The notes below the pieces were generated by a model that was not told the origin of the DNA, searched no databases, and saw only the letters and a list, made by a program, of their open reading frames with translations. 64,000 bases of DNA from Squalus acanthias (Eukaryota): positions 188,108,001-188,172,000 of the forward strand of contig CM059427.1 in the NCBI GenBank assembly GCA_030390025.1, in the 5' to 3' direction. Below, one piece after another: positions 25,211 to 61,359 of this stretch (positions within the stretch are counted from its first letter, which is position 1; each line of letters opens with the position of its first letter). Made by a program: the position numbers and the translations under genes.

Positions 25211-25969
25211 AGATGATCCTCAGATTTCTCCATTTTTAGATGTAAAACAAAATCAATGCCCATTTTTATGCTTATATCTAAATAGTTTTAAAATGCAGCA
25301 AAAAAGGTTCCGAAAAATCAAACCTTGTGCCTTCTAAAGTTGTACCTCTCCTAAAACTTTCAGAAACTTCTGCTTTGTCTCCTTCAAGATGAGTAATAAT
25401 TTTGGGTGCACATTGCAACATAAATTACAAGTGTTCGCACATTGCAAACTCACATTCAGGGTGGTTTTGGAGTTGTCGGTCTTTCTGATGAGGAGACAAC
25501 TTTCTTTTGAAGCTGTTGGTCAGTTTTTCATCAGTTGCAATGTATTTATGTCTTGACTTCAACACATTGAGGATGTGGGTAAGAGGTAGAATGAGTCAGA
25601 TGGCAAATTTGTACCTTAGGAGGAACAAGAGAGAAAAGCTCAGAGAAGCATTAAACTTAACAATATGAATAATATAGAAAGACAAGACAGGTCACAAAGG
25701 GGAATGAGGAAGATTCAAAGTTCTGGCCCATCATCTTCCACCACTCCTTTCATTATAACACAACAGATTCTCTGATTTACCATGAGTTCTGCCATTTGAG
25801 ATCCTCCAGTAACATTTACAATAACAGATCCCAATATTGGCCCCTTTGCTACCCATCCTGAAATGTTTGTGTGGTTGAATTTGAGCTACCATCTGTTTCC
25901 TTTTTGGAGCCAATTTTCTGTCTCAGCTCAAACGTCCACAACACCAATGATGTCTGAACCCTGCGCTGA

Positions 25970-26002
25970 AAGGGAAGAGGAAGCTCGCCAGCCCTGTGGT
26001 TT
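25970..26002 (+). promoter_or_regulatory. Putative promoter core, tandem ETS (GGAA) plus RUNX (TGTGGT) sites, copy B
   Basis: gggaagaggaag..ccctgtggttt, conserved at 47841-47871, about 125 bp upstream of a conserved splice donor. Confidence 0.5.
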
Positions 26003-26127
26003 CACAAGAGTCAATGCTATTTACTTTGTGCAGAGCAACGACTGAGAGCCTCAGTGTGTTGTGTGTCGCTGTGCTGGGAGCTTTGCTGCTCAGTCTCTGG
26101 ACTTCTTCACTAGTCTCTTCCCACAAG
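26003..26127 (+). other. Putative non-coding exon 1, copy B (start approximate)
   Basis: Donor CAAG/GTAGGC at 26127/26128, conserved in copy C, lying upstream of the ATG-bearing leader exon. Confidence 0.55.
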
Positions 26128-26949
26128 GTAGGCAATCTTACTGCAATCATTCTTTTTAAAGGATTGATTCAAATGTGGTTTGAATAACTGATCACATTTC
26201 TTAAAGATGTTGCACCCTTTAGACTAAACAAGGGCATTAAGTGCTTATTTATTTTGTTTCCTCTTCTATTTCACAAACTCCTATAAGAGGGTTTCTTACA
26301 ACTCAATGACTGCCGTCTGCTATTTTACACATTTTAAGCTTTCCTGCTTGTTGCCTGGTTGATATAAAATTTTAGTCTTTAACTGAATTTGTTTTTTCTG
26401 GTTTCCCAAGTGATGCTCTGGTTCTGTTTGAGGTTTTCATTGTCCTTCAAAGTTCTGCTGGCGATTCAGTTCTTTGACTAATCAGTGATGCCCAATTTAG
26501 TTGAAAACGTCTCCCAGAGAAATAGGAAGTAAAAGAGTGAAAAACTAAAATGTGAGAGAAGAGATGAACCATTACGGGCAAACTTGATTGGCAGCCCTTA
26601 GTGTGGGCTTGACGACTGCCCCTACTTTTAGTTCAGCTCCTCCAGTGAATATGATACAGGGAAAAGCAGAAGCTCTAATTGACCTAAGGATCTGCCTGAA
26701 ACCCGTTACCTTGTAATTGAGCTCGGAAAGCACAGCAATTACACCTTGCAGTCTGAAATCGTCACATTGAGTTATCATAGTTTCCCTTTATCGGCACAGT
26801 AATACAGTGTGTGTGAGATGGTCCAATGCTCCTGCCCTTATAAACCAGCCTCTGACCTACTGTGAGCAGCACCATAGCAGATACACTACCGTTAAAGAAT
26901 TCTGTTTGGAAATCTATAAACAGAAAGATTACAGCCTATTTACAGTCAT

Positions 26950-27237
26950 TTGGATCTTTAAAATATCGGACAATAATAAAATCATCATGGGCTAGCCTAA
27001 CTGGTCCTGACTTAGGCCATGTAAGTAACACAAAGCAGTAGATGGTTCTCTTAGTGTCACAGTTTTAGATGAAGCACGTTTGTGCCTTGGGCAGGTCGAT
27101 GAATGATGTCGATGTGGTTAATCTAAAACTGTGACACTAAGATAACCATCCACTGCTTTGGGTCATCTGATCTAACTGAGGACCATTTAGACAAGCCCAT
27201 GGCCATTTCATTAATGTCCGACATTTTAAAGATCCAT
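26950..27237. repeat. Imperfect inverted repeat, ~120-bp arms with a 50-bp loop
   Basis: ttagtgtcacagttttagat / atctaaaactgtgacactaa, and tggatctttaaaat / attttaaagatcca. Confidence 0.8.
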
Positions 27238-27347
27238 AAAAAAATGTTTTCATATGTTTCAGACTTGATATGATATGTTTTATTTCCAAATATAAAAATT
27301 ATTAGTTTCACATAACTTTCAGACAAAACATTCCAAATATAAGGTAT

Positions 27348-27750
27348 CAGCTGTGGCTCAGTGGTTGCACTCTCGCATCTGAGTCAGAAGATTGTGGGTT
27401 ACAGTCCCACTCCCACTGAGCACATAATCTAGGCTGATACTTCAGTGCAGTATTGAGGGAGTGCTGCACTGTTGGAGGTGTCGTCTTTTGATTCCCTACC
27501 TGCCCTATCAGGTAAATCTTAATGATCCCAGGGCACTGTTTCAAGAAGAGCAGGGCTGTTCTCGTGTTGTCCTGGTCAACATTTGTTCCTTACCAAACAT
27601 CTAAAACAGGTGTTCTGGTGATATACTTCATTATTGTTTGTGGAACTTGCCGTGCACAGATTCGTTGCCGTGTTTACTACGTTAAAAATGTACTTTATTG
27701 GAAAGTGTTTTAGGATGTCCTGAGGTTGTGAAAGGCTCGATATAAATGCT
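27348..27750 (+). mobile_element. tRNA-derived DeuSINE (SacSINE1-like)
   Basis: A box tggctcagtgg, B-box-like ggttacagtccc, central gaagagcaggg..gtcctggtcaacattt, and L2-type tail gtcctgaggttgtgaaaggc..tataaatgc. Confidence 0.75.
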
Positions 27751-28102
27751 ACAGGTATGTTTGAGGCAGAGACAATTGCATCTTTAATGTGAAATTGGAT
27801 AAACTTTTGAAGCATGAGATAAGATTTAGGGCTATGAGAGAGAGTGGGGCAGTGGGATTAGTTTATGAATTGTTCTAGCAAAGTGCTGGCACAGACACAA
27901 CGGGACAAATTCTTCTGTGACGTAATCTTCAATGTCTCTATAGAAAGGGGAGATGGCACTGAAGATTATAGTGAACAATTATCATTGTATCCATCAGAAA
28001 GAGCCTAATCTTGGGGGTAGTCATTTACTTGCTCGACCTTGGCACCAGCTACGGACACGACAACGGCACACCCAGCCCAGTCGACCCTCCAAAGTCCGGT
28101 AA

Positions 28103-28400
28103 CTCCTGCACTACCTGCCTGGTCCTCCTCTTCTGTCTGGCGGTCACCCATTCCCTCTCTGCCTGCATACTCTTAAGCTGCGGGGTGATCACCTCTAGAA
28201 ACGTGCAATCCATGTAACTCTCAGTCTCGCGGATGCACCGCAGTGACTCCAGCTGCCGCTTAAGCTCCGAAACCCGGAGCTCGAGTTGCTGTAGCTGGTG
28301 ACACTTCCCGCACATGTGGTCATCCAGGCTACGCGAAGCGTCCAGGACTTCCCACATGGCACAGGATGTGCACTCCACGGGACTGAGCTGTCCTGCCATG
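28103..28400 (-). mobile_element. CR1 ORF1 N-terminal fragment (zinc finger plus leucine zipper)
   Basis: MAGQLSPVECTSCAMWEV..HMCGKCHQLQQLELRVSELKRQLESLR. Confidence 0.85.
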
Positions 28401-28539
28401 CCTCTATTTAATAGACTAAGAACTAACCTAGCAGAAATAAACTTAAAACTTAACAAAAAACAGTCCCCAGCTACTCACCAATCAGCTCTTTCCCTCTATT
28501 TAATAGGCTATTAACTAACTTAGCAGAAATAAACTTATT

Positions 28540-29299
28540 GGGGTAAAAATCCGGTTACTTTGCGCCTCCTGTTAGCGCCCTTAGAGGGCGCTAACTGGCG
28601 CTAACTGGGCGCTAATGGGGCGCAAAGCAACTAGCATCCAGGCGCGGTGTCGCCAACGCCTCTCGCGAAATTCAGCGAGAGGTTAGCTGCGGCTGTAACC
28701 GTTAGCGCCCCACAGCGCTGTTCCGCCGGCGATGACGTCATCGTCATGCGCAGCTCCCTGCCCGCGCCGCGGCCACTATCTTCGGTAATGCCCCCTGAAT
28801 TATCGCCGGACGGTATGTCCGACGGGATCAAGGGGCCCTAACTGCAGCCGGGGCGACGATATTTAAAGGCGAGGTGCTGGGTGGCCATTTTTGTTGCTGG
28901 CCACCTGCCAGCACCGACCTCCGCTGCCATCCCCGGCCTCCTGACCTGCCTCCCCACGGACTGCCGGCTGCGTTCCTTGAGCCTGGCACTTCTCTTGAGT
29001 GCCGGGCTCTTTTGCCGGCACTCCAATCCCCGGTGGCCCAGTTGGGACCTGGGTCGCGCTGCTTAAGGCCATTCCTCTTTAAGAAGGGGAGGAAGGCCTG
29101 CAGTACCGCGGCACGTAGCACCGCGATATTCCCTCGCAGCGCCCAAGAGGGAGGTGGAGCGCTTCCAGTAGCGCCCCGCTTCCCTCTGGGGGCGCTACCA
29201 CTCAATTTCGGCCGTGGGGATGCTAATTTTTCCGGGGTGCTAAAAGAAGCGTTCCGGTGAAGTTAACGCCCCAAAGGGGGCGTGACTCAATTTTTCCCC
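28540..29299. mobile_element. GC-rich MITE (family 2)
   Basis: Termini ggggtaaaaat / atttttcccc; tagcgcc sub-repeats as in 11731-12466. Confidence 0.75.
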
Positions 29300-29489
29300 A
29301 TAAACTTAAAAAATATATAGTCACCAACTAATCACCAATCAGCTCCTTCAATTGTGCCGATGTCACTTTTTTTTACTCTGACGTCACTTTTTCAAAACAG
29401 CCTCTGTTGAGTTGCTGCTGCTCGTTTAACTGCTCCGCTCTCGCTGTGCTCCCTCCAGCTCCACTCCCTCCAGTCTCTCTAGGTCCGCT

Positions 29490-30022
29490 CTTTCCTGATC
29501 TAATAAGATCATTGAAACGTTTGCGGCACTGTACCCAGGCCCTCCTGACCACATCCCTGCTGGTGACCTCCTCTGCAATCTCTAACCAGGCTGTTTTGGT
29601 GTCCTGGGGAGGTCTCTTTCACCCATTGGTAGGGAAGAGGACCTTCCTGCGAGCTCTGACTCCCTCCATAATCATATGGAGAGAGGCATCGGAGAACCTG
29701 AGTGCGGCCCTCTGCCTCTTGTGCAGTCATTGTCAAAGTGTTTGCAGCTCTCCAATGCTATAGTGCACTGACAGCACTATGTTAGATTAACCTCAAATGT
29801 AATGTGGTCACGGCCCCTTTAAAGATCCCGGCTGAAAACACGTCATGAATGACGTCACCAGACCCGCACCATTTAATTGGTCCGGGTAACGCGCAGTGCG
29901 GGCTTAATAGGCCCTATTAACATGAAGTCATTTTGTGGAGCGGGATGGAGTCAGCAACGGGGTCGTGACCCATCATGGCCACCGCCCACGCCGGACCCGC
30001 CCAGGTAGGGAAAACTCTGGCC
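29490..30022 (-). mobile_element. Harbinger remnant encoding the Myb/SANT-like DNA-binding ORF
   Basis: A minus frame absent from the ORF track reads RFSDASLHMIMEGVRARRKVLFPTNG*KRPPQDTKTAWLEIAEEVTSRDVVRRAWVQCRKRFNDLIRSG. Terminus gggaaaactctggcc; homology to copy C (52878) resumes right after it. Confidence 0.85.
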
Positions 30023-30313
30023 TATGTGGCTGGTGGATAAGAGGTGCATTATTCATGGTCCATCGTATATTAGGATGAGTAACTTTTGTTACACTTCTCA
30101 CAGGAAGAGGTGGTGTACTTTACTGAAGAAGGTTATTGTACATTTTACAGTTCCAAATTAGAATGGGGAAATAATTTGGAAAGCTGTTTTACCACATTTT
30201 TTTTCTTCACAGTCTGAAGTGTTAAACATATTCAGGAAATGTGCCTCGGTTTTACTTCTGGTGGTTTTCTGGAGCTATATATATTTCTATATCTATTTGT
30301 ATATTTCTTACAG

Positions 30314-30423
30314 GCAAAGAGATGGAATCTGTGAAATGAGGCTATGATTTTGCTGCAGCAAAATGCCAGCTGGTTTGATGTTCAGTTTCTTTGTGTTTCT
30401 ACTTCCGTCTGTTTTCACACAAA
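30314..30423 (+). CDS. Signal-peptide exon, copy B (ATG at 30363); no Ig exons found downstream in its own copy
   Basis: ttcttacAG acceptor; MPAGLMFSFFVFLLPSVFTQ plus 1 nt; donor GTACGT. Confidence 0.75.
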
Positions 30424-30555
30424 GTACGTGCCTTTTTTCCACCAATCACAATCATATTTTTTTACTTCATCTTAGTGTTTAACGAATTCACACACCTAGT
30501 ATTCAACAAGTAAGTAAGGTCTTTATTTTCCTGTCCCTGCTCCTTTAAACAGGGT

Positions 30556-31313
30556 GGCCCGTATTTTCCGATCACAGGCCTCCCGCGGGCGGTGGACTGC
30601 AATCAGGAAAAATCTGCGCCCTTACCTGAAGGCTCCCGGGAGGCGCACAGTTCCGATGCTGGGCCTCTCCAAACTGCCGGTGCGCAGGGCCCACGTATCC
30701 CAGAGGCGCAGGTCGTTCGCAGCGTCCCTGGGATTACGTGGGCCATGGGGAGCCAATAAGAGAAGGGAATCTCCCTTCATACATTTGACAGGAAGACCTG
30801 TCAAATATATGAAAGGAGATCACCCCCAAAACATCGTAAAACTTGAAATAAATTTAGAAAAAAAAAATCACATTTTTAAAATGACTTGAAAGTACAATAA
30901 ATTAACTATTTTAAACAAAACTTTAAATTTTTCAAAAAAATAATTAAAGTTTTTAACTGGGATAAAAATAAACTTACCTTTTTTCAAAGTATTTTTAAAT
31001 GATAAATCAGTGGAAATTTTAAAAAAACTTTTTTCAACTCTTATCCTGGTAAAAGCCAGCCTTACACCTGCTTTTACCAGGCGCAAGAATTGTAAGGGTT
31101 TTCTGCGGGCGGAGGGTCGGCAGAAAGCGGAAATCTCCCCCCGCAGAGGCCCTGCTCCAGGGCAGCCAGAGGATCTGTCAAGAGCTTTCTTCACAGATCG
31201 GAAATGCCGGTTTCCCACGCATGTGTAGTGCATGCCTGAAACCGGCATTTCCGATGTCCCTACGGGTGAGTACACAGCGCGGACACACCCGTAGGGATCG
31301 GAATATCCGGCCC
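30556..31313. mobile_element. MITE family 1 (mirror copy at 36806-37563)
   Basis: Termini ggcccgtattttccgatc / gatcggaatatccggccc. Confidence 0.85.
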
Positions 31314-31667
31314 ACGTGATTTCACTTTTGAGATTCAAGCAATGGAATAAAATGAAAAATGTTCGTATACTTCTCATTGCTCTTCAACTCCATTTCCCGA
31401 TCCATCTATTAATCTTTCTATCTGTCTGTACATCGACTCTTGCATACAGCAAACGTCCATCACACAGCTCGATGTCACATTTCAAAGTGTCACACTCACT
31501 CTGTGGAGCACTCTCTGTATTCCACGATATTTCAGATTTCAAGAGCCTAACAGATTGAATGTGGTAAAGAATGGTTTCAAAATTAATAACAATATTAAAA
31601 TGTTAGTAAATGTTTATAAAATTAGGAATTATTGAGAACCCTTTGTTGCTCAAGCCTGTGCGACTTA

Positions 31668-32525
31668 TAAGAACATAAGAACATAAGACGTAGGAGCAGG
31701 AGTAGGTCATTTGGCCCCTCGAGTCTGCTCCGCCATTCAATAAGATCATGGCTGATCTGATCTTGGCCTCAACTCCACTTCCCTGCCCACTCCCATAACC
31801 CTTGACTCCCTTATCATTCAAAAATCTGTCTATCTCCTCCTTAAATATATTCAATGACCCAGCCTCCACAGCTCTCTGGGGAAGAGAATTCCAAAGATTC
31901 ACGACCCTCTGAGAGAAGAAATTCCTCCTCATTTCTGATTTAAAAGGGTGCCCACTTATTCTGAAATTATGCCCCCTAGTTCCAGATTCCCTCATGAGGG
32001 GAAACATCCTCTCTGCATCTACCCTGTCAAGCCCCTTCAGAATCTTATATGTTTCAATAAGATCCCCTCTCATTCTTCTAAACTCCAATGAGTATAGGCA
32101 CAACTTGCTCAACCTTTCTTCATAAGATAATCCCTTTATCTCCGGAATCTTCTCAGAACTGCCTCCAACGCAAGTATATCCTTCCTTAAATAAGGAGACC
32201 AAAACTGTACGCAGTACTCCAGGTGTGGTCTCACCAACGCCCTGTACAGTTGTAACAGGACTTCCCTACTTTTATACTCCATTCCCTTTGCAATAAAGGC
32301 CAACACTCCATTTGCCTTCCTAATTACTTGCTTTACCTGCATGCTAACTTTTTGTGATTCATGTACAAGGACCCCCAGATCCCTCTTTACCTCAGCATTT
32401 TGTAATCTCTCCCCATTTAAATAATAATTTGCTTTTTTATTTTTCCTACCAATGTGGAATCCGATAATCTCGCATTTTCCCAAATTAAACTCCATCTGCC
32501 AGATTTTTGCCCACTCACTTAGCCT
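31668..32525 (-). mobile_element. CR1 3' RT end and 3' UTR (mirror copy at ~35580-36445)
   Basis: LYRALVRPHLEYCVQFWSP..RRMRGDLIETYKIL..FFSQRVVNLWNSLP; (ataagaac)n tail. Confidence 0.95.
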
Positions 32526-33620
32526 ATCTTTTTTTTTATTCGCTTATGGGATCTGGGCGTCGCTGGCAAGGCCAGCATTTATTGCCCATCCCTAGTTGCC
32601 CTTGAGAAGGTGGTGGTGAGCCCCCTTCTTGAACCGCTGCAGTCCGTGTGGTGAAGGTACTCTCACAGTGCTGTTAGGTAGGGAGTTCCTGGACTTTGAC
32701 CCAGCGACGATGAAGGAACGGTGATATACTTCTAAGTCAGGGTGGTGTATGACTTGGAGGGGAACCTTTAGGTGCTGGTGTTCCCATGCGCCTGCTGCCT
32801 TTGTCCTTCTAGGTGGAAAAGGTCACGGGTTTGGGAGGTGCTGCCGAAGAAGCCTTTGTGGTTCTGCTTTTTAATTTAGCCCCTAGCTGCTCATACTCTC
32901 TCAGAAGAACCTTTTTCTTTGTCCTACCTATGTCGTTGTTACCTACATGGACCACGACAACTGGATCTTTCCCCTCCCACTCTAAGTTCCTCTCCAGCCC
33001 AGAGGAAATGTCTTTTACCCTGGCACCGGGCAGGCAACACAGCCTTCGGAACTCACGCTTTCGGCTGCAGAGAACAGTATCTATCCCCCTAAATATACTG
33101 TCCCCTACCACTACCACATTTCTCTTTGCTCCCTCCACTTGAAAGGCTCCCTGTACCATGGTGCTTTGGTCAGTTTGCTCATCATCGCTGCAGTCCCTGC
33201 TCTCGCCCACACAAAGATTAAAAACCTCATAACTGTTGTACAAGAGCAAGGGCTGAGGATGATGGTACACACTGCAGCCACGGTACGCCGGTGCTGGAGG
33301 GAGTGAATGTTTAAAGTGGTGGATGGGGTACCAAGCAAACGGGTTGCTTTGTCCTGGATGCTGTCGAGTTTCTTGAGTATTGTTGGAGCTGCACTCATCC
33401 AGGCAAGTGGAGAGTATTCCATCACACTCCTTACTTGTGCCTTGTAGATGATGAAAGGCTTTGGGAAGTCAGGAGGTGAGACACTCGCCGCAGAATACCT
33501 ATCCTCTGACCTGCTCTTGTTGCCACATTATTTATGTGGCTAGTCCAGTTAAGTTTCTGGTCAATGGTGACCCCCAGGATGTTGATGGTGGGGGATTCGG
33601 CGATGGTAATGCTGTTGAAT
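32526..33620 (-). mobile_element. L2/CR1-group LINE 3' fragment interrupted by a CR1 ORF1 esterase fragment (~32857-33255)
   Basis: MEYSPLAWMSAAPT..LDSIQDKA; the insert reads VVVVGDSIFRG..CCLPGARVKD..VHVGNND (SGNH/GDSL-like). Confidence 0.85.
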
Positions 33621-34397
33621 ATCTATATCCCTTTGGAGATTCTTTGCGTCCACCACACAGTTTGCTTTCCCACCTATCTTTGTATCATCATCAAATTTGG
33701 CTACATTACACTCAGTCCCTTCATCCAAGTCATTAATATAGATTGTAATTAGTTGAGGCCCCAGCACTCATCCCTGCAGCACCCCACTAGTTACAGTCTG
33801 CCAACCTGAAAATGACCTATTTATCCCGACTCTCTGTTTGCTGTTAGTTAGCCAATCCTCTATCCATGCTAATATAATACCCCCAACCCCGTGAGCTCTT
33901 ATCTTTTATGTGGCACCTTATCGGATGTCTTCTGCAAATCTAAATACACAGCATCTACTGGTTCCCCTTCATCTACCCTACTCGTTACATCCTTAAAGAA
34001 CTCCAGCAAATTTGTCAAACATGATTTCCCTTTCATAAAACCATGCTGACTCTGCTTGACTATATTATAATTTTCTAAATGTCCTGCTATCACTTCCTTA
34101 ATGATGGACTCCAGCATTTTCCCAATGACAGATGTTAGGCTAACTGGTCGATAGTTGCCTGCTTTCTGTCTCCCTCCTTTCTTAAATAGGGGCGTTACAT
34201 TCTCAGTTTTCCAGTCCGCATGGACCTCTCCAGAATCCAAGGAATTTTGGTAGATTACAACCAATGCATCCAGTATCTCTGCAGCCACCTCTTTTAAGAC
34301 TCTAGGATGCATGCCATTTGGTCCAGGGGATTTGTGCACCTTTAGTCCCATTAGTTTGCCTAGTACTTTCTCTCTAGTGATAGTGATTGTTTTAAGT
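33620..34397 (-). mobile_element. CR1 RT fragment in the palindrome spacer
   Basis: ORFs 33899-34351 and 33561-33767 carry CR1 RT motifs. Confidence 0.9.
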
Positions 34398-37300
34398 TGC
34401 CCCCCCCCCCACCCCTGAAGGGATAATTACAAGTCCTAGCCCTTTCGGACTATCCCAGATCAGGCCTATTCCCCAGACGTTTACTCTCAACTAAAGTTAG
34501 CGGTAGCCGGATCCCAAAAGACGCTTAATTGGGTCTAAAGGTCAGACTACCTCTCCCTAAAGGAAAGAAACAGTCTAAAGATGTTACCATCCTCCAGATA
34601 GTACTTTCAATAAGTTTAACTAGACTGTCTCACCTCCTGACTTCCCAAAGCCTTTCATCATCTACAAGGCACAAGTAAGGAGTGTGATGGAATACTCTCC
34701 ACTTGCCTGGATGAGTGCAGCTCCAACAATACTCAAGAAACTCGACAGCATCCAGGACAAAGCAACCCGTTTGCTTGGTACCCCATCCACCACTTTAAAC
34801 ATTCACTCCCTCCAGCACTGGCATACCGTGGCTGCAGTGTGTACCATCATCCTCAGCCCTTGCTCTTGTACAACAGTTATGAGGTTTTTAATCTTTGTGT
34901 GGGCGAGAGCAGGGACTGCAGCGATGATGAGCAAACTGACCACAGCACCATGGTACAGGGAGCCTTTCAAGTGGAGGGAGCAAAGAGAAATGTGGTAGTG
35001 GTAGGGGACAGTATATTTAGGGGGATAGATACTGTTCTCTGCAGCTGAAAGCGTGAGTTCCGAAGGCTGTGTTGCCTGCCCGGTGCCAGGGTAAAAGACA
35101 TTTCCTCTGGGCTGGAGAGGAACTTAGAGTGGGAGGGGAAAGATCCAGTTGTCGTGGTCCATGTAGGTAACAACGACATAGGTAGGACAAAGAAAAAGGT
35201 TCTTCTGAGAGAGTATGAGCAGCTAGGGGCTAAATTAAAAAGCAGAACCACAAAGGCTTCTTCGGCAGCACCTCCCAAACCCGTGACCTTTTCCACCTAG
35301 AAGGACAAAGGCAGCAGGCGCATGGGAACACCAGCACCTAAAGGTTCCCCTCCAAGTCATACACCACCCTGACTTAGAAGTATATCGCCGTTCCTTCATC
35401 GTCGCTGGGTCAAAATCCAGGAACTCCCTACCTAACAGCACTGTGGGAGTACCTTCACCACACGGACTGCAGCGGTTCAAGAAGGGGGCTCACCACCACC
35501 TTCTCAAGGGCAACTAGGGATGGGCAATAAATGCTGGCCTTGCCAGCGACGCCCAGATCCCATAAGCGAATAAAAAAAAAAGACAGGCTAAGTGAGTGGG
35601 CAAAAATCTGGCAGATGGAGTTTAATTTTGGAAAATGCGAGATTATCGGATTCCACATTGGTAGGAAAAATAAAAAAGCAAATTATTATTTAAATGGGGA
35701 GAGATTACAAAATGCTGAGGTACAGAGGGATCTGGGGGTCCTTGTACATGAATCACAAAAAGTTAGCATGCAGGTAAAGCAAGTAATTAGGAAGGCAAAT
35801 GGAGTGTTGGCCTTTATTGCAAAGGGAATGGAGTATAAAAGTAGGGAAGTCCTGTTACAACTGTACAGGGCGTTGGTGAGACCACACCTGGAGTACTGCG
35901 TACAGTTTTGGTCTCCTTATTTAAGGAAGGATATACTTGCATTGGAGGCAGTTCTGAGAAGATTCCGGAGATAAAGGGATTATCTTATGAAGAAAGGTTG
36001 AGCAATTTGGGCCTATACTCATTGGAGTTTAGAAGAATGAGAGGGGATCTTATTGAAACATATAAGATTCTGAAGGGGCTTGACAGGGTAGATGCAGAGA
36101 GGATGTTTCCCCTCATGAGGGAATCTGGAACTAGGGGGCATAATTTCAGAATAAGTGGGCACCCTTTTAAATCGGAAATGAGGAGGAATTTCTTTTCTCA
36201 GAGGGTCGTGAATCTTTGGAATTCTCTTCCCCAGAGAGCTGTGGAGGCTGGGTCATTGAATGTATTTAAGGTGGAGATAGACAGATTTTTGAATGATAAG
36301 GGAGTCAAGGGTTATGGGGAGCGGGCAGGGAAGTGGAGTTGAGGCCAAGATCAGATCAGCCATGATCTTACTGAATGGCGGAGCAGGCTCGAGGGGCCAA
36401 ATGACCTACTCCTGCTCCTACATCTTATGTTCTTATGTTCTTATAAGTCGCACAGGCTTGAACAACAAAGGGTTCTCAATAATTCCTAATTTTATAAACA
36501 TTTACTAACATTTTAATATTGTGATTACTTTTGAAACCATTCTGTACCACGTTCAATCTGTTAGGCTGTTGAAATCTGAAATATCGTGGAATTCAGAGAG
36601 TGTTCCACAGAGTGAGTGTGACACTTTGAAATGTGACATCGAGCTGTGTGAAGGACGTTTGCTGTATGCAAGACTAGATGTATAGACAGATAGAGAGATT
36701 AATAGATGGATCGGGAAATGGAGTTGAAGAGCAATGAGAAGTATACGAACATTTTTCATTTTATTAAGTTGTTCCATTGCTTGAATCTCAAAAGTGAAAT
36801 CACGTGGGCCGGATATTCCGATCCCTATGGGTGTGTACGCGCTGTGTACCCACCCGTAGGGACATCGGAAATGCCGGTTTCAGGCATGCACTACACATGC
36901 GCTGGAAACCGGCATTTCCGATTTGTGAAGAAAGCTCTTGACAGATCCTCCGGCTGCCCGGGAGAAGGGCCTCTGCGGGGGGAGATTTCCGCTTTCTGGC
37001 GACCCTCCGGCTGCAGAAAACTCTTACAATTTTTGCGCCTGGTAAGAGCAGGTGTAAGGCCTGCTTTTACCAGGATAAGAGTTGAAAAAAGTTTTCAAAA
37101 AAATTTCCACTGATTTATCATTTAAAAATACTTTGAAAAAAGGTAAGTTTATTTTTAGCCCCGTTAAAAACTTTAATTATTCTTTTGAAAAATTTAAAGT
37201 TTTGTTTAAAATAGTAAATTTATTGTACTTTCAAGTCATTTTAAAAATGTGATTTTTTTTTCTAAATTTATTTCAAGTTTTACTATGTTTTGGGGGTGAT

Positions 37301-37695
37301 CTCCATTCATATATTTGACAGGTCTTCCTGTCAAATGTATGAAGGGAGATTCCCTTCTCTTATTGGCTCCCCATGGCCCACGTGATCCCAGGGACGCTGC
37401 GAACTACCTGCGCCTCTGGGATATGTGGGCCCTGCACACCGGCAGTTTGGAGAGGCCCAGCATCGGAATTGTGCGCCTCCTGGGAGCCCTCAGGTAAGGG
37501 CACAGATTTTTCCTGATTGCAGTCCACCGCCCACGGGAGGCCTACGATCGGAAAATACGGGCCACCCTGTTTAAAGGAGCAGGGACATGAAAATAAAGAC
37601 CTTACTTACTTGTTGAATACTCGGTGTGTGAATTTGTTAAACACTAAGATGAAGTAAAAAAATATGATTGTGATTGGTGGAAAAAAGGCACTTAC

Positions 37696-37805
37696 TTTGT
37701 GTGAAAACAGACGGAAGTAGAAACACAAAGAAACTGAACATCAAACCAGCTGGCATTTTGCTGCAGAAAAATCATAGCCTCATTTCACAGATTCCGTCTC
37801 TCTGC
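37696..37805 (-). CDS. Inverted copy of the signal-peptide exon (ATG at 37756)
   Basis: Identical 61-nt coding part, intact AG acceptor and GTAAGT donor on the minus strand. Confidence 0.7.
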
Positions 37806-38473
37806 CTGTAAGAAATATACAAATAGATCTAGAAATATATATAGCTCCAGAAAACCAACAGAAGTAAAACTGAGGCACATTTCCTGAATATGTTTAACAC
37901 TTCAGACTGTGAAGAAAAGAAATGAGGTAAAACAGCTTTCCAAATTATTTCCTCATTCTAATTTGGAACTGTAAAATGTACAATAACCTTCTTCAGTAAA
38001 GTACGCCACCTCTTCCTGTGAGAAGTGTAATAAAAGTTACTCATCCTAATATACGATGGACCATGAATAATGCACCTCTTATCCACCAGCCACATAGGCC
38101 AGAGTTTTCCCTACCTGGGCGGGTCCGGTGTGGGCGGTGGCCATGGTGGGTCATGACCCCGTTGCTGACTCCATCCCGCTCCACAAAATGACTTCATGTT
38201 AATAGGGCCTATTAAGCCCGCACTGCGCGTTACCCGGACCAATTAAATGGTGCGGGTCTGGTGACGTCATTCATGACGTGTTTTCAGCCGGGATCTTTAA
38301 AGGGGCCGTGACCACATTACATTTGAGGTTAATCTAACATAGTGCTGTCAGTGCATTACAGCATTGGAGAGCTGCAAACACTTTGACAATGACTGCACAG
38401 AGGCAGAGGGCCACACTCAGGTTCTCCGATGCCTCTCTCCATATGCTTATGGAGGGAGTCAGAGCTCGCAGGA

Positions 38474-39450
38474 GGGTGGTGGTGGATGGGGACTGGTTGG
38501 GCCTCTGTTCAAGGAAGAAGCGGAGCGCCCTCAGGCCATCCTGGTGGGGAATGGAGGTGTAGAGGGATTGTACGTCCATAGTGAAGAGGAGACGGTTGGG
38601 GCCGGGAAACTGGAAACTGTTAAAATGGCGGAGGGCATCGGAAAAGTCGCGGATGTAGGTGGGAAGAGACTGGACAAGGGGAGAAAAAATAGAGTCGAGA
38701 TAGGAAGAGATAAGTTCTATTTACTTGTACTTCCTGCAATTTAGTATACTGTATTCGCTGCTCACGATGTGGACTCCTCTACATTGGGGAGACCAAACGC
38801 AGATTGGGTGACCGCTTTGCGGAACACCTCCGTTCAGTCCGTAAGGGGAACCCCGAGCTCCCGGTGGCCTGTCACTTTAATTCACCGCTTCACTCCCACT
38901 CTGACCTCACCGTCCTCGGCCTATTACACTGTTCCACGGAAGCTCAGCGTAAGCTCGAGGAACCGCACCTCATCTTTCGTTTAGGCACGCTACAGCCCTC
39001 TGGACTCAATATCGAGTTCAACAATTTTAGATCATAACCTCAGCTCCAATCACATTTATATTTTATTTTATCCACCCTTTTATTTGTCCCCCCCCACCTT
39101 TTTTTTTCCTCCTAGAAGCTGGCAGCTGTCCTTCATTCTGCCAGTGGATTTCACACTTCATTCAGCCTTAATCTGTCACAGTAACACCACCTCGAGCCTT
39201 GCATATCTCTTAATGTCTCTTAATGTCTCTTCATCTCCCCCTTTGTTCCTTTATCCCCTCCCCCTTTTCCCAGCTTTACCCTGGCCTTAAATCTATTTGA
39301 TTTCCGGCTCTTCCCAGTTCTGATGAAAGGTCATCGACCTGAAACGTTAACTCTCTTTCTCTCTCCACGGATGCTGCCTGGCCTGCTGAGTTTTTCCAGC
39401 GTTTTCTGTTGTTATTTTGGATTTCCAGCATCCGCAGTATTTTGCTATTG
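38474..39450 (+). mobile_element. Penelope-like element: inverted RT fragment (38474-~38715, minus), GIY-YIG end and pLTR (plus)
   Basis: MDVQSLYTSIPHQDGLRAL on minus; DRFAEHLRSV..PVACHFNS..EEPHLIFRLGTLQPSGLNIEFNNF on plus. Confidence 0.9.
39316..39352 (+). ncRNA. Minimal hammerhead ribozyme motif
   Basis: agtt-CTGATGA-a-aggtc(atc)gacct-GAAA-cgtt-aact. Confidence 0.8.
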
Positions 39451-40417
39451 TATCAAGTCATTCTTTGGTGACTTTGTTCTATTCTTTATTGATATTTCAT
39501 CTGTCAGCTTTTAGACTTGTGTCCTGTTTAGGTGTTTCCAAAACCATCATAAACACAATGACAGCAATGGTTTCTGTTTGATGCAATTCTTAGGAAGTCT
39601 TTCTATTGAATTTCTAATACTACTTTAACTGTTTTTTTTCAGAAGTTGTGACTCCGTGGTATTCCAAGTTCAATACAAGAACAATGTGATTGCTTGGTGT
39701 ATCCATTGAAGTAATATTTTCAAAGTCGTCTGTTTGTGTACCTTTTACAACTTGTAAATTAAAAACACTTCTCTAGTATCTTTATGCATTTCTAATTTAC
39801 TTCAATTGATTTTTATCAGACCTTGGGACTCCATCTTTCAAGCTTAACATTAAAACTATTTGTTCAGCAGGCATTTCTTTTACTTGATGTCATTTCTTCA
39901 AAGCCTTCTGTTGCTTTCATATTTACAATATGTAAATTGAAAACGCTTCTCTCAGTGTTTACTTGTTTTCTAGCTATCTCTATTGGTTGCATATTTAATC
40001 GTGTTTCCTGTCTTTAAGTTTAACATAAAACTATTTTACGACAGGTATTTCTTACTTGATGTCATTCTTTCAAAGGCACTTGTTTTTTTTAATGTTCTGT
40101 GCATCTGTTCAACGTGTTAGCTTATAACACTTTACTTGGGTCATTCCATTGTTTTGATTCCAATGTCCAGATGCTCTGGAAGCAAACCTTTGCTTTATCA
40201 ATAGGGCTTGTTTCTTGGTCAATAACCCATTCCCATTTCAAAGCCTGTGTTCACAGCTTTGTGTTAACAACTAATCTTATCTCATAAGCCTGTATTCTGC
40301 CTTCAGCCTGTGTCGCCGAGGCTTTCAAACTTTTAAACCCAGTATGTCATTTATTAATAATTTCAGAAATCTGTTTTTAGTATCGTGTATTTCTCTGAAT
40401 CCTGGCTATTCCTTCAC

Positions 40418-44113: not shown

Positions 44114-45802
44114 AGAAGTCGCACAACACCAGGTTATAGTCCAACAGTTTTATTTAAAATTACGAGCTTTCGGAGCTCCGCTCCTTCTTCAGGTACAGTG
44201 AGGGAACACAAATCGATTACACCGTATATAAACACAGAGAACAATGTGTCTGCAGAGATACAATCTGTTAGGGAGGCATTACATCAAAGACACATCAGAG
44301 TACAGCTAAGACAATGAGGTGGGTCACAGGGGGTCCAACGTGTCAAATGCGGCCGTCTGCAGTTAAGCTTTCAACTTTTTTTTTAAAACTGGAAAAACAG
44401 ACAACGATGTCGAGTCACGTTCTGTAGCATGACATAAACCCGAGATCCCTGTTGAGTCCATCCTCATGGGTGCGGAAACCACTTATCAGTTTCTGCTCGA
44501 TGATTTTGCGTTGTCGTGTGTCTCGAAGGCCGACTTGGAGAACGCTAACCCGCAGATCCGAGGCTGAATGTCCTTGACTGCTGAAGTGTTCCCCGACTGG
44601 GAGGTAACAATCCTGCCTGGCGATTGTTGTGCGGTGTCCGTTCATACGTTGTCTCAGTGTCTGCATGGTCTCGCCGATGTACCATGCCGCGGTGCATTCT
44701 TTCCTGCAACGTATGAGGTAGACAACGTTGGCCGAGTCACATGAGTAAATACCATGTACCTGGTGGGTAGTGTCCTCAAATGTGATGATGGTATCTGTGT
44801 TCATAATCTGGCATGTCTTGCAGAGGTTGCCGTGGCAGGGTTGTGTGCTGTCATGGTCGCTGTTCTCCTGACAGCTGGGTAATTTGCTGCGAACGATGAT
44901 ACTTTTGAGGTTAGGCGGCTGCTTGAAGGCGAGTAGTGGAGGCGTGGGGATGGCCTTAGCAAGGTGTTCGTCGTCATCGATGACATGTTGAAGGCTGCGA
45001 AGAACATGGCGTAGTTTCTCCGCTCCGGGGAAGTACTGGACGACGTAGGGTACTCTGTTGGTTGTGTCCCGTGTTCGCCTTCTGAGGAGCTCTATGCGAT
45101 TTTTCGCTGTGGCCCGTCGGAACTGTTGATCGACGAGTCGAGCATCATATCCCGTTCTTACGAGGGCATCTTTCAGCATCCGTAAGTGTCCATCGCGTTC
45201 CTCCTCGTCTGAGCAGATCCTGTGTATTCGCAGGGCTTGTCCATAGGGGATGGCTTCTTTAACGTGGTTAGGGTGGAAGCTGGAGAAGTGGAGCATCGTG
45301 AGGTTGTCCATGGGCTTGCGGTAGAGTGAAGTGCTGAGGTGTCCGTCTTTGATGGAGATTTGTGTGTCCAGGAATGAAACCAATTCTGAGGAGCAGTCCA
45401 TGGTGAGTTTGATGGTGGGATGGAACCTGTTGATGTTATCGTGTAGTCCTTTCAGTGATCCTTAGCCATGGGTCCAAAGGAAGAAGATGTCGTCGATGTA
45501 TCTGGTGTATTGCGTTGGTTGGAGGTCCTGTGCAGCGAAGAAGTCTTGCTCGAACTTGTGCATGAAGATGTTGGCGTATTGGGGTGCGAATTTGGTCCCC
45601 ATGGCTGTTCCGTGTGTTTGGGTAAAAAACTGGTTGTCGAAGGTGAAGACATTGTGGTCAAGGATGAAGCGGATGAGTTGTAGGATGGCGTCTGGAGATT
45701 GGCTGTTGTTGGTGTTGAGTACTGAGGCTGTCGCAGCGATGCCGTCATCGTGGGGGATACTGATGTAGAGTGCCGATACGTCCATCGTGGCGAGGAGTGT
45801 AT
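44114..45802 (-). mobile_element. 5'-truncated Penelope-like element (RT plus GIY-YIG plus pLTR)
   Basis: MDVSALY..GTAMGTKFAPQYANIFM..RYIDDIF; FLDT..LYRKP; NVVYLIRC..YIGET..EHF. 11-bp TSD attataacatg (44103-44113, 45803-45813). Confidence 0.95.
44161..44195 (-). ncRNA. Minimal hammerhead ribozyme motif
   Basis: Minus strand tac-CTGAAGA-a-ggagc(gga)gctcc-GAAA-gctc-gta. Confidence 0.75.
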
Positions 45803-47385: not shown

Positions 47386-47840
47386 ATGTGTTTTTGCCAC
47401 ATATCCGGAACTAGCAGCTTCCACACAAATTTACACCAACCTGAATTTCACCGTGGCCACAATAAAAGTCTGGTTTTAATACGTTAATTAACCTCACAAC
47501 TCCAATTCAATTCAAACCAATATTTTAAAACTACCCAGTATCACTTGCAAAACAAAGGAAGAAGCCACACTAACAATGAAACATTCACACATGCTTTGTA
47601 AATGTTTAAATTCATTTTATTCCAGGCACATTAACTTCAAAGATGAAGCTTATCTTTTGTAAAACAATGAACAAACTTAAATAATAGATCACAAGACTGA
47701 CCCCTTTGCTACCCAGACCGAAATGATTTTGAACATGATAGTTCCCATTTTGAGCTACCCTCTGTTTCCTATTTTGAGCCAATTTTCGATCTCAGCTCAA
47801 CCGGGCACAACACCAATGATGTCTGAACCCTGAGCTGAAA

Positions 47841-47996
47841 TGGAAGAGGAAGCTCGCCTTCCCTGTGGTTTCACAAGAGACAGCGTCAATTACTTTGTGC
47901 AGAGCAACGACTGAGAACCTCAGTGTGTTGTGTGTCGCTGTGCTGGGAGCTTTGCTGCTCAGTCTCTGGACTTCTTCACTAGTCTCTTCCCACAAG
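47841..47996 (+). promoter_or_regulatory. Putative ETS/RUNX promoter and non-coding exon 1, copy C
   Basis: ggaagaggaag..ccctgtggttt; donor CAAG/GTAGGC at 47996/47997; no ATG in the exon. Confidence 0.55.
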
Positions 47997-48756
47997 GTAG
48001 GCAATCTTACTGCAAACATTCTTTTTAAAGCATTGATTTAAATGTGGTTTGAATAACTGATTGCATTTCTCAAAGATGTTGCACCCTTTAGACTAAACAA
48101 GGGCATCAAGTGCTTATTTATATGGTTTCATCTCCTTTTTCATAAAATGACACTAAGGGGGTTTCTTACAACTCAATGACTGCCATCTGCTATTTTACAC
48201 ATTTTAATGTTTCCTGCTTGTTACCTGGTCGATATAAAATTTTGTTTTTAACTGGATTTGTATTTTCTGGTTTCCCAAGTGATGCTCTGGTTCTGTTTTA
48301 GGTTTTCATTGTTCTTCAAAGTTCTGCTGGCGATTCAGTTCTTTGACTATTCAGTGATGCCCAATTTAGTTGAAAACATCTCGCAGAGAAATAGGAAGTA
48401 AAAGAGTGAAAAACTAAAATGTGAGAGAAGAGATGAACCATTACGGGCAAACTTGATTGGCAGCCCTTAGTGTGGGCTTGACGACTGCCCCTACTTTTAG
48501 TTCAGCTCCTCCAGTGAATATGATACAGGGAAAGGCAGAAGCTCTAATTGACCTAAGGATCTGCCTGAAACCCGTTACCTTCTAATTGAGCTCGGAAAGC
48601 ACAGCAATTACACCTTGCAGTCTGAAATCGTCACATTGAGTTATCACAGTTTCTCTTTATCAGCACAGTAATACAGTGTGTGTGAGATGGTACAATGCTC
48701 CTGCCCTTATAAACCAGCCTCTGTCCTACTGTGAGCAGCACCATAGCAGATACACT

Positions 48757-49499
48757 GGCCCAGAAATTGATCTCGCTCTGTTCCCGCGGGGGTAAGCCTT
48801 CCCCGCGATGTCTCACCTCGCTTATGCTTTTTCAGATCCAGCTCGCACGAACTTGATGTTCCAGACATCAGCTGTGCTGGGCTTGCGTATCCCAGCGGCG
48901 TAGTGAATTCGTGCGAGCTGTGGGATCACGTGACTCAGTTAGAGCCAATGGCAGCACACCATCTTCCATTCATAAGTCTCACAGCATGGCTGTGAAATCA
49001 ATGAATCTTACACCCCCCCAAAATAACAGCTAAACCTCAATTAAATTTAAAAAAAACCATCACATTAATAAAATAAGTATAGTTAATTAAATTAACCATT
49101 TTAAATAAAAAATTAAATTTTTTGAAAAAATTTAAAATCTTTTAAAAAGTTATAAAAATAAACTTACCTGTCTTTAAAGTCTATAAAAAAGATATACCTG
49201 TAAAAAAAAATTCAAAAAAATACTTAATTCACTACTTACCTTCTTAAAAGCGGGTCTTACTCCTCCTTTTTACATTTCCAAAATCTTCCCTACTTACCTG
49301 CGCGTCCAAAGCATGAAGTGCACAGCGTGCGCGCAGCCTGTAGCGCGCACGCGATGCACCCAGGCCACGCCCCCTTTTCAGAAGAGCAATTGCCGGTTTT
49401 CAGCGCATGCGCAGGGCATGCAGAAAACCGGCAATTGGAGTGGGAATACGCGAGAGTACGCAGTGCGTACTCTCGCGTCCCGGGATCAATTTTCGGCCC
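48757..49499. mobile_element. MITE family 1 with a demonstrable empty site
   Basis: Termini ggcccagaaattgatc / gatcaattttcggccc; TSD ACT; empty site atacACTacc at 26881-26890. Confidence 0.92.
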
Positions 49500-50578
49500 A
49501 CTACATTTAAAGAATTCTGTTTGGAAATCTATAAACAGAAGGATCACTGTCTATTTACGGTCATTTGGGTCTTTAAAATGTCTGACCATAATGAAATTGT
49601 CATGAGCTTGTGCAACTGGTACTGACTCAGGCCAAGTGAATAACTCAAAGCAGTAGACGGTTATTTTAGTGTCAACATTTGTTTCTTACCCAAAATCTAA
49701 AACAAATGTTCTGGTCATAAATGTAATTACTATTTGTGGAACTTGCTGTGCGCAAATTGACTGCCGCATTTACTACATTAAAAATGTACTTTATTGATTG
49801 TAAAGATTTTTGCGATGACCTGAGGTTGTGAAAGGCACTATAACTACATGCTACAGGTATCATTGAGGCAGAGACAATTGCATCTTTAAGGGAAAATTGG
49901 TAAATCTTTGAAGTAGGGTAAGATTTAGGGCTATGAGAGAGAGTGGGGCAGTGGGATTAGTTTTGGATTGTTCTAGCAAAGTGCTGGCACAGACACAACA
50001 GGACAAATTCTTCTGTGACGTAATCTGCAATGTCTCTATAGAAAGGAGGGATGGCATTGAAGATTATATTGAGCAATTATCTTTGTATCCATCAGAAAGA
50101 ACCTTATCCTGGAGGTAGTCATTTACTTGTTAAGGTTCTGTCTGAGAATGTACACATGTATGTGTGTGCACATAGAGAGAAAAAACATGTATTTATATAC
50201 TGCGCTTGACATCGAGGCAGCATTTAACCATGTGTGGCACCAAGGAACCCCAGTAAAACTGAAGTCAATGGGGATCAGGGGGAATACTCTCCAGTGTTGG
50301 AGTCAAACCTGGCACAAAGGAAAAAGATTGTGGTCGTTGGAGGCCAATCATCCCAAGATGAGGCCATCACTGCCCATATTTTGGTAGCTCAGGATGGTAT
50401 TTTGTGCCCTAAAAATGGAGGCTGCGCGTTGGAATTTTTTGGACTTTCAGTCCCAGCCTCAAGATAGACTGCTGCCACCTCTAGGCTGCTGATTTGAATC
50501 ATATGCAATCTCAATACAAGGAATTTCTTTGCTTAATACAGAGTGCACCAACCTGAGGGAAGATTATCAAACAGCTCA

Positions 50579-53182: not shown

Positions 53183-53291
53183 GCAAAGAGACGGAATCTG
53201 TGAAATGAGGCTATGATTTTCTGCAACAAAATGCCAGCTGGTTTGATGTTCAGTTTCTTTGTGTTTCTACTTCCGTCTGTTTTCACACAAA
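53183..53291 (+). CDS. Signal-peptide exon of IgSF receptor copy C (ATG at 53231)
   Basis: AG acceptor; MPAGLMFSFFVFLLPSVFTQ; phase-1 donor A/GTAAGT splices in frame to 59623. Confidence 0.85.
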
Positions 53292-57050: not shown

Positions 57051-57064
57051 TTATTTTGTTTCGG

Positions 57065-61346: not shown

Positions 61347-61359
61347 GCCACTCCCTATC

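What the first reader, a model, noticed from the sequence alone, without database searches (positions are those of the whole stretch)
29641..38477. 3.85-kb-arm palindrome that traps the leader exon in sense and antisense
Seen: near-identical inverted arms around a 1.14-kb spacer. They contain the signal-peptide exon in both orientations (30314-30423 plus, 37696-37805 minus), downstream of an intact-looking promoter and exon 1. The arms carry scattered substitutions, which argues against a simple read-foldback assembly artefact. Inference: transcription from promoter B would form a multi-kb dsRNA stem including leader sequence identical to copy C. That makes it a potential hairpin-RNA or ADAR substrate regulating the family, and a rearrangement hotspot.
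Basis: partly seen in the sequence, partly recalled or inferred. Interest (0 to 1): 0.7.

Follow-up and report, generated by a model that had tools for sequence, protein, structure and literature searches.

The report
Penelope-seeded palindrome trapping an orphan exon
The mirror-image stretch is real and sits inside the footprint of a young jumping gene in a shark-like genome, where a DNA-copying slip most likely duplicated 5.5 kb of neighbouring DNA backwards and caught a leftover exon of a broken gene copy by chance, so it is probably an accident and not a gene-regulating hairpin.

Summary
The palindrome is real: arms 29641-33486 and 34623-38477, 97.2% identical, with the leader exon in both orientations. 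Two paralogous blocks on the same chromosome explain it. P3 lacks it (empty site). P2 has it with longer arms (5.6 kb) and an intact centre. The whole inverted copy lies between the two copies of a 16-bp target-site duplication, among pieces of a young Penelope-like retroelement. The pieces fit an ordinary head-to-head Penelope insertion followed by three microhomology template switches that copied 5.5 kb of flank backwards. The window's copy later lost 3.26 kb of the centre, which made the 'spacer'. At least 77% of the arm is dispersed repeat; only 110 bp is exon. The trapped leader belongs to a truncated copy (no Ig exons) of a multi-Ig receptor family with at least 40 leader copies. The arms show no sign of selection for pairing. 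The family's spliced RNA contigs carry other paralogs' alleles. A regulatory hairpin is unsupported but was not testable with stranded reads. The scan has noted Penelope-seeded flank duplications before on other DNA. Verdict: a mechanistic by-product with a well-preserved three-state history.

The parts
25820..26887 (+). Promoter / non-coding exon 1 block of truncated gene copy B (donor GTAGGC at 26128)
   Evidence: 92.5% to the block of copy C; a family RNA contig joins this donor position to a leader acceptor, with alleles of another paralog
29641..33486 (+). Left arm: the original DNA (also present, single, in empty-site paralog P3); at least 77% dispersed repeats
30314..30423 (+). Orphan signal-peptide exon of copy B, sense; weakened donor GTACGT and an extra upstream ATG; no Ig exon follows before promoter C
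33487..34622 (.). 'Spacer': the part of the original left arm whose mirror copy was deleted; 1133 of the 1142 bases from 33487 to 34628 are dispersed repeat
   Evidence: matches both arms of P2
34416..34628 (+). First part of a 1.65-kb high-copy element with TG...CA ends and 4-bp flanking duplication (solo-LTR-like), which was the Penelope target; the rest resumes at 39447
34623..34628 (.). Window-specific deletion junction: about 3.26 kb of the palindrome centre lost, 3-bp perfect microhomology TGT within a 5-of-6 match
   Evidence: alignment to P2
34623..38473 (-). Right arm: inverted copy of the flank (5485 bp long in P2 before the deletion)
37696..37805 (-). Antisense copy of the leader exon
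38470..38473 (.). Return junction: 4-bp microhomology AGGA (9 of 11 with its neighbours) between the flank and Penelope position ~1540
   Evidence: full match only in window and P2
38474..38717 (-). Remnant of the inverted Penelope copy (RT region, element positions ~1290-1535)
   Evidence: 98.8% to the full-length unit
38719..39446 (+). Direct 5'-truncated Penelope copy: GIY-YIG end, 3' UTR with a hammerhead-like core at 39320-39345, 30-nt tail
   Evidence: 99.3% to the full-length unit; Pfam GIY-YIG above cut-off; core read by eye
39447..39462 (+). Right copy of the 16-bp target-site duplication (its first 7 bp also match the element's tail); the left copy lay in the deleted centre and survives in P2
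   Evidence: single in P3, doubled in P2
47680..63289 (+). Complete-looking paralog C: promoter block 47680-48756, leader 53183-53291, Ig exons 59623-59964 and 63020-63289; further Ig exons beyond the window

Best explanation
The palindrome is a 5.5-kb inverted duplication of host DNA lying between the target-site duplications of a young Penelope-like retroelement insertion; it most likely formed when replication or repair switched templates at that insertion's head-to-head repeat, and it likely has no selected RNA function. Step 1 (inferred from the surviving pieces): the element inserted in its usual form into a solo-LTR-like repeat in the intron of an already truncated gene copy: target duplication, inverted tail-less copy (element positions 3171 to 1290), head-to-head joint, direct copy (2474 to tail), target duplication. 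This left a 700-bp inverted repeat. Step 2 (junctions shown, mechanism inferred): a nascent strand stopped 260 bp into the inverted copy, copied 215 bp of nearby DNA (microhomology GAA), jumped to the opposite strand at element position 2508 (AT), ran back through the target junction and 5.5 kb of flank, and returned at position ~1540 (AGGA), losing about 970 bp of the element. Step 3 (shown by paralogs): the block was duplicated; P2 kept the centre and its inner 4.17 kb are 99.9% alike, likely by arm-to-arm conversion; the window's copy lost 3.26 kb of the centre, and its outer left arm was likely replaced from a non-palindromic paralog or allele. The leader exon is a passenger.
For: Empty site in P3 with the 16-bp target once. 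In P2 the order is: target, inverted Penelope 260 bp, 215 bp local copy (100% to DNA 210-430 bp upstream), Penelope 664 bp ending at the same tail-less base, inverted flank 5485 bp, inverted Penelope 241 bp, direct Penelope 728 bp with tail, target. The element is young and abundant: 1162 candidates, the 40 scored 98-100% identical; a 3201-bp unit encodes a 929-aa ORF with RT and GIY-YIG hits. Head-to-head inverted tail-less copies with 14-16-bp duplications occur in 6 of 20 other insertions (a seventh, L097, proved to be two neighbouring insertions), and inverted copies of 1.29 kb (L121) and at least 0.94 kb (L073) exist. All three new junctions carry 2-4-bp microhomology. The 664-bp and 260-bp pieces have 0 differences from the family majority and the 664-bp piece lacks 2 derived bases shared by both direct copies, as expected if it was copied from the inverted copy (weak). 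The inner arm divergence (9 of 1082, 0.83%) is of the size expected from the element's own drift (5 and 3 of 728). The P2 homogenised tract stops at a 100-bp deletion in one arm.
Against: The intermediate (insertion without the flank duplication) was not found; the 1.9-kb inverted copy is reconstructed from three pieces and is longer than any seen in the other loci. Insertion and duplication cannot be separated in time by divergence, so a one-step event during integration remains open. 0 of 20 other young insertions show such a duplication within 18 kb, so the process is inferred from one event. The near-identity of the P2 arms could partly be a consensus-polishing effect, and the window and P2 could be two haplotypes placed in tandem (99.0-99.6% alike over much of the right flank).
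Confidence: 0.62

Rival explanations
1. One-step event during integration: the two element-extended DNA ends failed to join, and replication of the unjoined end (or self-priming of the new strand on its own inverted copy, with the element's reverse transcriptase taking part) produced the fold-back and the 5.5-kb inverted copy before the site was sealed. Same by-product, different timing and enzyme.
For: Both target-duplication copies are intact and bracket everything; all element pieces are within 0-0.7% of the family majority, so the events are close in time; the anole element cleaves and extends both strands in vitro (PMC11167929, parts 1-2 of 4 read); L1 gives fold-backs, local templated insertions and inversions at the reciprocal end (PMC11702581, passages).
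Against: The joint at 38718 is the ordinary head-to-head joint seen in 6 of 20 other insertions, so a finished normal insertion explains it with no extra priming event; internal priming at position 1540 is not one of the two start sites reported for the anole element; the 664-bp piece does not share the direct copy's 2 derived bases.
Confidence: 0.27
2. One reading: promoter B is transcribed through both arms, and the multi-kb stem is edited by ADAR or diced into small RNAs that act on the leader exons of the family.
For: Geometry allows it: promoter, exon 1 and both arms lie on one strand within 12.5 kb, with perfect runs up to 340 bp between the window's arms and 3011 bp in P2; the family is spliced in RNA-type contigs; the coding part of the leader is identical to copy C; in mouse a long hairpin mRNA gives RNAi in oocytes (PMC3245926, abstract).
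Against: No excess pairing at the exon (p=0.75) or wobble bias (p=0.18); only 110 of 3846 arm bases match mRNA and at least 77% are repeats; present in 2 of 3 B-type blocks and young; the window's copy lost a third of its right arm and its outer left arm has drifted to 2-5% mismatch; the spliced exon1-leader and leader-Ig junctions seen carry other paralogs' alleles, not those of B; the same mouse paper reports poor siRNA production and little editing in somatic cells (abstract).
Confidence: 0.06
3. Copy B works as an alternative promoter and leader for gene C (leader B spliced in frame to the first Ig exon at 59623), and the palindrome is a neutral or mildly disruptive passenger in that 29-kb intron. 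Compatible with the best explanation.
For: Leader B ends in phase 1 like leader C and no Ig exon lies between; the orphan B arrangement is kept in all three paralogous blocks, including P3 without the palindrome.
Against: The window's sense leader has a weakened donor and an extra upstream ATG; the junction contigs seen are not B-type.
Confidence: 0.12
4. Assembly artefact (fold-back read or mis-joined haplotypes).
For: Long inverted repeats in repeat-rich clusters are error-prone; the public runs are short contigs, and none listed spans a junction.
Against: 95 arm differences; derived bases shared by the right arms of two separately placed copies; target-site duplication and an empty paralog; each junction present twice; a deletion with microhomology specific to one copy.
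Confidence: 0.02

Closest known systems
Endonuclease-bearing Penelope-like element insertions with inverted 5'-truncated copy, one-sided 30-40-bp tail and target-site duplication (PMC3846280 and PMC8557442, passages read; PMC11167929, parts 1-2 of 4 read)
   Same: RT plus C-terminal GIY-YIG ORF, 5' truncation, inverted tail-less copy joined head to head, 30-nt tail on one side, 14-16-bp target duplication.
   Different: 5.5 kb of target-flanking DNA is copied in inverted orientation inside the duplication. The Adineta passages describe capture of host DNA between direct repeats, not an inverted copy of the flank.
Replication-based complex rearrangements: MMBIR/FoSTeS, fold-back and ODIRA-type inverted duplications (PMC2621351, PMC3907307, PMC10766186; search listing and start of abstract only, details recalled)
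   Same: Serial template switches with 2-4-bp microhomology, a short templated insertion from nearby DNA, an inverted duplication starting in an inverted repeat, a small deletion at the return.
   Different: The seeding repeat is a fresh retroelement footprint of about 700 bp; the product is a germline-inherited 11.9-kb palindrome, later duplicated and centre-deleted.
L1-associated local rearrangements at insertion sites (PMC11702581, passages read; supplementary figures S9-S10 not seen)
   Same: Insertions flanked by target duplications that also carry inversions, inverted duplications or templated copies of DNA near the site; fold-back junctions holding reverse-transcribed sequence.
   Different: A different retroelement class; seen there in cultured human cells, here inherited in a vertebrate germline.
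Hairpin-derived endogenous siRNAs from inverted-repeat pseudogenes, and ADAR editing of inverted repeats (PMC3245926, abstract; the endogenous mouse-oocyte examples are recalled)
   Same: Inverted repeat downstream of a promoter, containing sequence shared with expressed paralogs.
   Different: Here the repeat is intronic, mostly transposon, with 110 bp of exon, and no transcript from this copy is shown.
Arm-to-arm gene conversion and spacer loss in large palindromes (PMC3723533, PMC8327919; search listing only)
   Same: One copy has near-identical inner arms; another has lost its centre.
   Different: Much smaller, young, made mainly of repeats, and holding no complete gene.

Membership tests
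Endonuclease-bearing Penelope-like element insertion | Single ORF with reverse transcriptase and C-terminal GIY-YIG endonuclease | tested here: met
   929-aa ORF in the full-length unit; RVT_1 E=1.6e-5 and GIY-YIG E=5.7e-4 (both below curated cut-offs); the window's piece passes the GIY-YIG cut-off, 25.1 against 22.6 bits
Endonuclease-bearing Penelope-like element insertion | Inverted 5'-truncated copy lacking the 30-40-bp tail; tail on one side only | tested here: met
   Inverted piece starts at element position 3171, direct copy runs to 3201 and on
Endonuclease-bearing Penelope-like element insertion | Target-site duplication against an empty site | tested here: met
   16 bp, single in P3, double in P2; first 7 bp shared with the tail
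Endonuclease-bearing Penelope-like element insertion | Hammerhead ribozyme in the terminal repeat | tested here: inconclusive
   Rfam gave no hammerhead at E<=1 in 25500-48500; a minimal core with a 5-bp stem II is visible by eye at 39320-39345 (the consensus is recalled)
Endonuclease-bearing Penelope-like element insertion | Clade (Penelope/Poseidon, Neptune, Nematis) | not tested
   No phylogeny built
Template-switch (MMBIR/FoSTeS-type) inverted duplication | Several junctions with short microhomology and a templated insertion from nearby DNA | tested here: met
   GAA, AT, AGGA; 215 bp copied from 210-430 bp upstream
Template-switch (MMBIR/FoSTeS-type) inverted duplication | Made by host replication or repair enzymes on finished DNA | not testable with these tools
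   Timing against integration unresolved; no intermediate allele found
Hairpin-RNA (endo-siRNA) locus or ADAR substrate | One transcript reads through both arms | not testable with these tools
   Only unstranded contigs; junction contigs seen belong to other paralogs
Hairpin-RNA (endo-siRNA) locus or ADAR substrate | 21-23-nt RNAs or A-to-I clusters on the paired arms | not testable with these tools
   No small-RNA or matched RNA/DNA runs listed
Hairpin-RNA (endo-siRNA) locus or ADAR substrate | Selection to keep pairing, above all over the target-matching part | tested here: not met
   3/110 against 92/3734, p=0.75; wobble 34 against 23, p=0.18; low power
G6f-like / G6b Ig receptors (for the host gene family) | Orthology or alignment to G6f/G6b, with cytoplasmic ITAM or ITIM | tested here: inconclusive
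   Only a language-model similarity for a homologue (0.95-0.96); no alignment made; copy A's tail shows no tyrosine motif, some homologues end in tyrosine motifs

The most novel reading that the evidence does not exclude
Penelope integration itself copies kilobases of target-flanking DNA backwards, and here it turned a truncated receptor-gene copy into a promoter-driven hairpin whose small RNAs hit the shared leader exon of a 40-gene immune-type receptor cluster in the germline or in blood cells.
Probability: 0.04. Interest if true: 0.75.

Novelty: new variant of a known kind. Interest (0 to 1): 0.3.

Why it matters
It gives a rare three-state record (empty site, full palindrome with homogenised arms, centre-deleted palindrome) of how the head-to-head footprint of a Penelope element can seed a multi-kilobase inverted duplication in a vertebrate germline. 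With more than a thousand young copies in this genome, such footprints are a plausible source of structural change in fast-evolving gene clusters, though 0 of 20 other insertions showed it. One search (Penelope-like, inverted duplication, host DNA, insertion site, palindrome; 4 of 5 terms) returned only the Adineta paper, whose passages describe host-DNA capture of another kind; closed journals were not searched. It does not at present point to a new regulatory RNA.

Tried and rejected
Read evidence: no RNA holder listed; the runs guessed to be RNA held 4-10% of the words. Laying contigs on 33490-39800 (4 runs) and 25800-30560 (4 runs) was swamped by repeats; no listed piece bridged a junction, and the gaps in cover over the unique intron parts are not counted as evidence. 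A>G differences listed there also stand in DNA runs, so they are paralog or allele differences, not editing. Rfam on 25500-48500 gave one weak mir-8 match (E=0.032, far below its cut-off) on an imperfect inverted repeat, taken as chance. PDB search with the first Ig exon: nothing at E<0.27; Pfam: no hit for that exon. An ectopic Penelope copy as template for the return junction was considered: the one other place resembling the 38718 joint (C3327) is an unrelated 92% copy. L115 and L097 first looked like host-DNA capture but are separate neighbouring insertions with their own duplications. My first model (self-primed fold-back with re-priming on RNA at position 1540) was demoted to a rival. 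Literature searches for the host family found no description ('obscurin-like' with shark: 0 papers; G6f-like/G6b with shark: 1 paper on teleost thrombocytes). PMC9977147 (passages) had no bearing. No date in years is given: no substitution rate was looked up.
Full report
Observation. Self-BLAST confirms inverted arms at 29641-33486 and 34623-38477 (3857 columns, 97.2%, 95 mismatches, 6 gap openings) around 1136 bp. The leader exon stands at 30314-30423 (+), 37696-37805 (-) and, in copy C, 53183-53291; all three encode the same 20 residues. The window is G000:C3:188108001-188172000 in a 3.7-Gb genome.

Host genes. A 301-bp query over the leader gave 40 scored matches of 55 candidates, 38 of them between 186.4 and 189.5 Mb of C3. 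Copy C continues with Ig exons at 59623-59964 and 63020-63289 and more beyond the window. A search with the first Ig exon among proteins of 199-2000 aa gave 44 hits; every source name is from a shark, ray or skate, most read 'uncharacterized'. The four I read are type I membrane proteins with repeated Ig modules. A language-model search with one homologue ranked G6b- and G6f-like clusters first, a lead only. Copy B has promoter, exon 1 and leader but no Ig exon before promoter C, in the window and in both paralogous blocks (exon scan; tblastn with 3 homologues). B was therefore truncated before the palindrome arose.

Two paralogs give the history. P2 (C3:188.58-188.71 Mb) matches the window over at least 85 kb and has the same palindrome with longer arms (P2 18641-24285 and 24900-30644, counted from 188,610,001) around 614 bp. 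P3 (C3:187.57-187.63 Mb, minus strand) has the left arm once and runs straight on into window position 39447. A query over the inner arm end matched in full at 4 places among 40 scored: the window, both P2 arms and P3. The junctions at 38470, 38718 and 39446 each matched in full at 2 places among 40 scored, the window and P2 (candidate lists of 43, 1217 and 280, so these are lower bounds). The window lacks about 3.26 kb of the P2 centre, joined at a 5-of-6 microhomology. Its 'spacer' is simply left-arm DNA whose mirror copy was deleted.

What lies between the target duplications. Against P3, the insert in P2 is bracketed by a 16-bp duplication and reads: inverted element end (positions 3171-2912), 215 bp identical to DNA 210-430 bp upstream, element 2508-3171 forward, 5485 bp of flank inverted starting exactly at the target, element ~1540-1290 inverted, element 2474-3201 forward with its 30-nt tail. 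The element is a Penelope-like retroelement: 3201-bp tandem unit, 929-aa ORF with RT and GIY-YIG hits, 1162 candidates, the 40 scored 98-100% identical. The target is a 1.65-kb repeat with TG...CA ends and 4-bp flanking duplications in 2 of 2 other copies examined, which looks like a solo LTR.

Comparison with other insertions. I took 20 of the 29 other loci fetched, in list order with one locus counted once, each with 18 kb upstream. They are the best-scoring, tailed copies of at least 728 bp, so the sample leans to young and long insertions. 6 of 20 have an inverted tail-less copy fused head to head, with 14-16-bp duplications; 1 more is two neighbouring insertions; 0 of 20 have an inverted copy of the flank at the target junction. 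Inverted copies can be long: 1.29 kb in L121, at least 0.94 kb in L073. This matches the published pattern of inverted copy, one-sided tail and duplication (PMC3846280 and PMC8557442, passages) and the two RT start sites of the anole element (PMC11167929, parts 1-2 of 4).

Mechanism. All pieces follow from one ordinary insertion (inverted 3171-1290 joined head to head to direct 2474-tail) plus three template switches with microhomologies GAA, AT and AGGA. The stretch 'element 2508-3171 plus inverted flank' is the reverse complement of 'flank plus inverted copy', so that junction is a copy and not a new joint. The 664-bp piece has 0 differences from the family majority and lacks 2 derived bases found in both direct copies, which fits copying from the inverted copy, but 2 sites are weak evidence. 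Notes from this scan on other DNA prompted me to test this two-step order; I reached the Penelope link before seeing them. Whether the switch happened during integration or later cannot be told: the inner arms differ by 9 of 1082 sites and the direct copies by 5 and 3 of 728 from the majority, both young. L1 produces comparable local inversions, templated insertions and fold-backs (PMC11702581, passages; its supplementary figures were not seen and may hold closer parallels).

Later history. Substitution rates: window right arm against P2 right arm 36/3853 (0.93%); window arms 95/3844 (2.47%); P2 arms 30/5383 (0.56%); all four against P3 1.8-2.6%. In P2 the inner 4174 bp are 99.88% alike and the tract ends at a 100-bp deletion in the left arm, as conversion spreading from the centre would; polishing error is not excluded. 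In the window the arm mismatch is 0.83% in the inner 1.08 kb and 1.6-4.9% further out, and the outer left arm keeps ancestral or family bases where the other three arms share derived ones. Much of the 'scattered substitution' therefore likely reflects exchange with a non-palindromic paralog or allele, not age.

The hairpin idea. For: the geometry permits a long stem, and the family is spliced in contigs of runs guessed to be RNA (exon1-leader joint in 1 of 3 such runs, leader-Ig loose end in 2 of 3). Against: those junctions begin with alleles of other paralogs; at least 2961 of 3846 arm bases match repeats found in 420 kb of unrelated loci; the exon is not better paired than the rest (p=0.75) and there is no wobble bias (p=0.18), though both tests are weak; the sense leader shows decay; 13 AATAAA sites lie on the sense strand between 25950 and 38477 (untested as signals). 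In mouse a long hairpin mRNA is poorly diced and little edited in somatic cells but silences in oocytes (PMC3245926, abstract), so a germline effect is the version still open. If nascent B RNA reads through, some editing would be expected as for any inverted repeat (general knowledge), without implying function.

Verdict. Real structure, ordinary cause, good record of its own origin. New variant of a known kind; interest 0.3.

Noticed in passing
G000:C3:186.4-189.5 Mb; also C26:26.28 Mb and C1512: A cluster of at least 40 leader copies of an uncharacterised multi-Ig membrane-protein family whose named homologues are all from sharks, rays and skates; cysteine-free first domain, repeated Ig modules, tails with or without tyrosine motifs; nearest language-model clusters are G6b/G6f-like. 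No paper found in two searches. May deserve its own study as a receptor family.
   Followed up: partly
window 47680-64000 and L048-L050: Gene C carries the Ig module twice in tandem (second cysteine-free domain at window-equivalent 72150-72494), and paralogs differ in module number.
   Followed up: partly
window 13074-17798: 34-bp G-rich minisatellite, about 139 copies, GC skew 0.64, with GGGGG/GGG runs on one strand (G-quadruplex-like); also present in the P2 and P3 blocks.
   Followed up: no
window 94-763 and L047 (upstream): A second Penelope-like family forms a head-to-head insertion with 670-bp arms that are 100% identical, in the window block and in P2; another copy of that family lies at 44415-45800.
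   Followed up: no
L097/L098 (C3:30.86 Mb): Two young copies of the element inserted about 380 bp apart in opposite orientation, each apparently with its own target duplication, one tail-less and one tailed; could be a concerted double insertion.
   Followed up: partly
L045 (C3:188.082-188.087 Mb): Intron 1 of gene A holds two further tail-less Penelope pieces, one interrupted by other DNA, the longer ending about 130 bp before the leader exon.
   Followed up: partly
window 28674-31666: The window differs from P2 by 3-4% here but by under 1% over most of the right flank, and by 0.4% over 22 kb further left: mosaic exchange between paralogs.
   Followed up: partly
window 55735-56015 and 56611-56891: 281-bp inverted repeat at 94% inside a LINE-like fragment in gene C's intron.
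   Followed up: no
window 26951-27236: Imperfect palindrome (74%) in intron 1 of copy B with a weak Rfam mir-8 match, E=0.032; half of it is present in copy C.
   Followed up: no
window 1253-1462: A partial extra copy of the last Ig exon of gene A, found by tblastn but not called as an intact exon; also present in P2 and P3.
   Followed up: no
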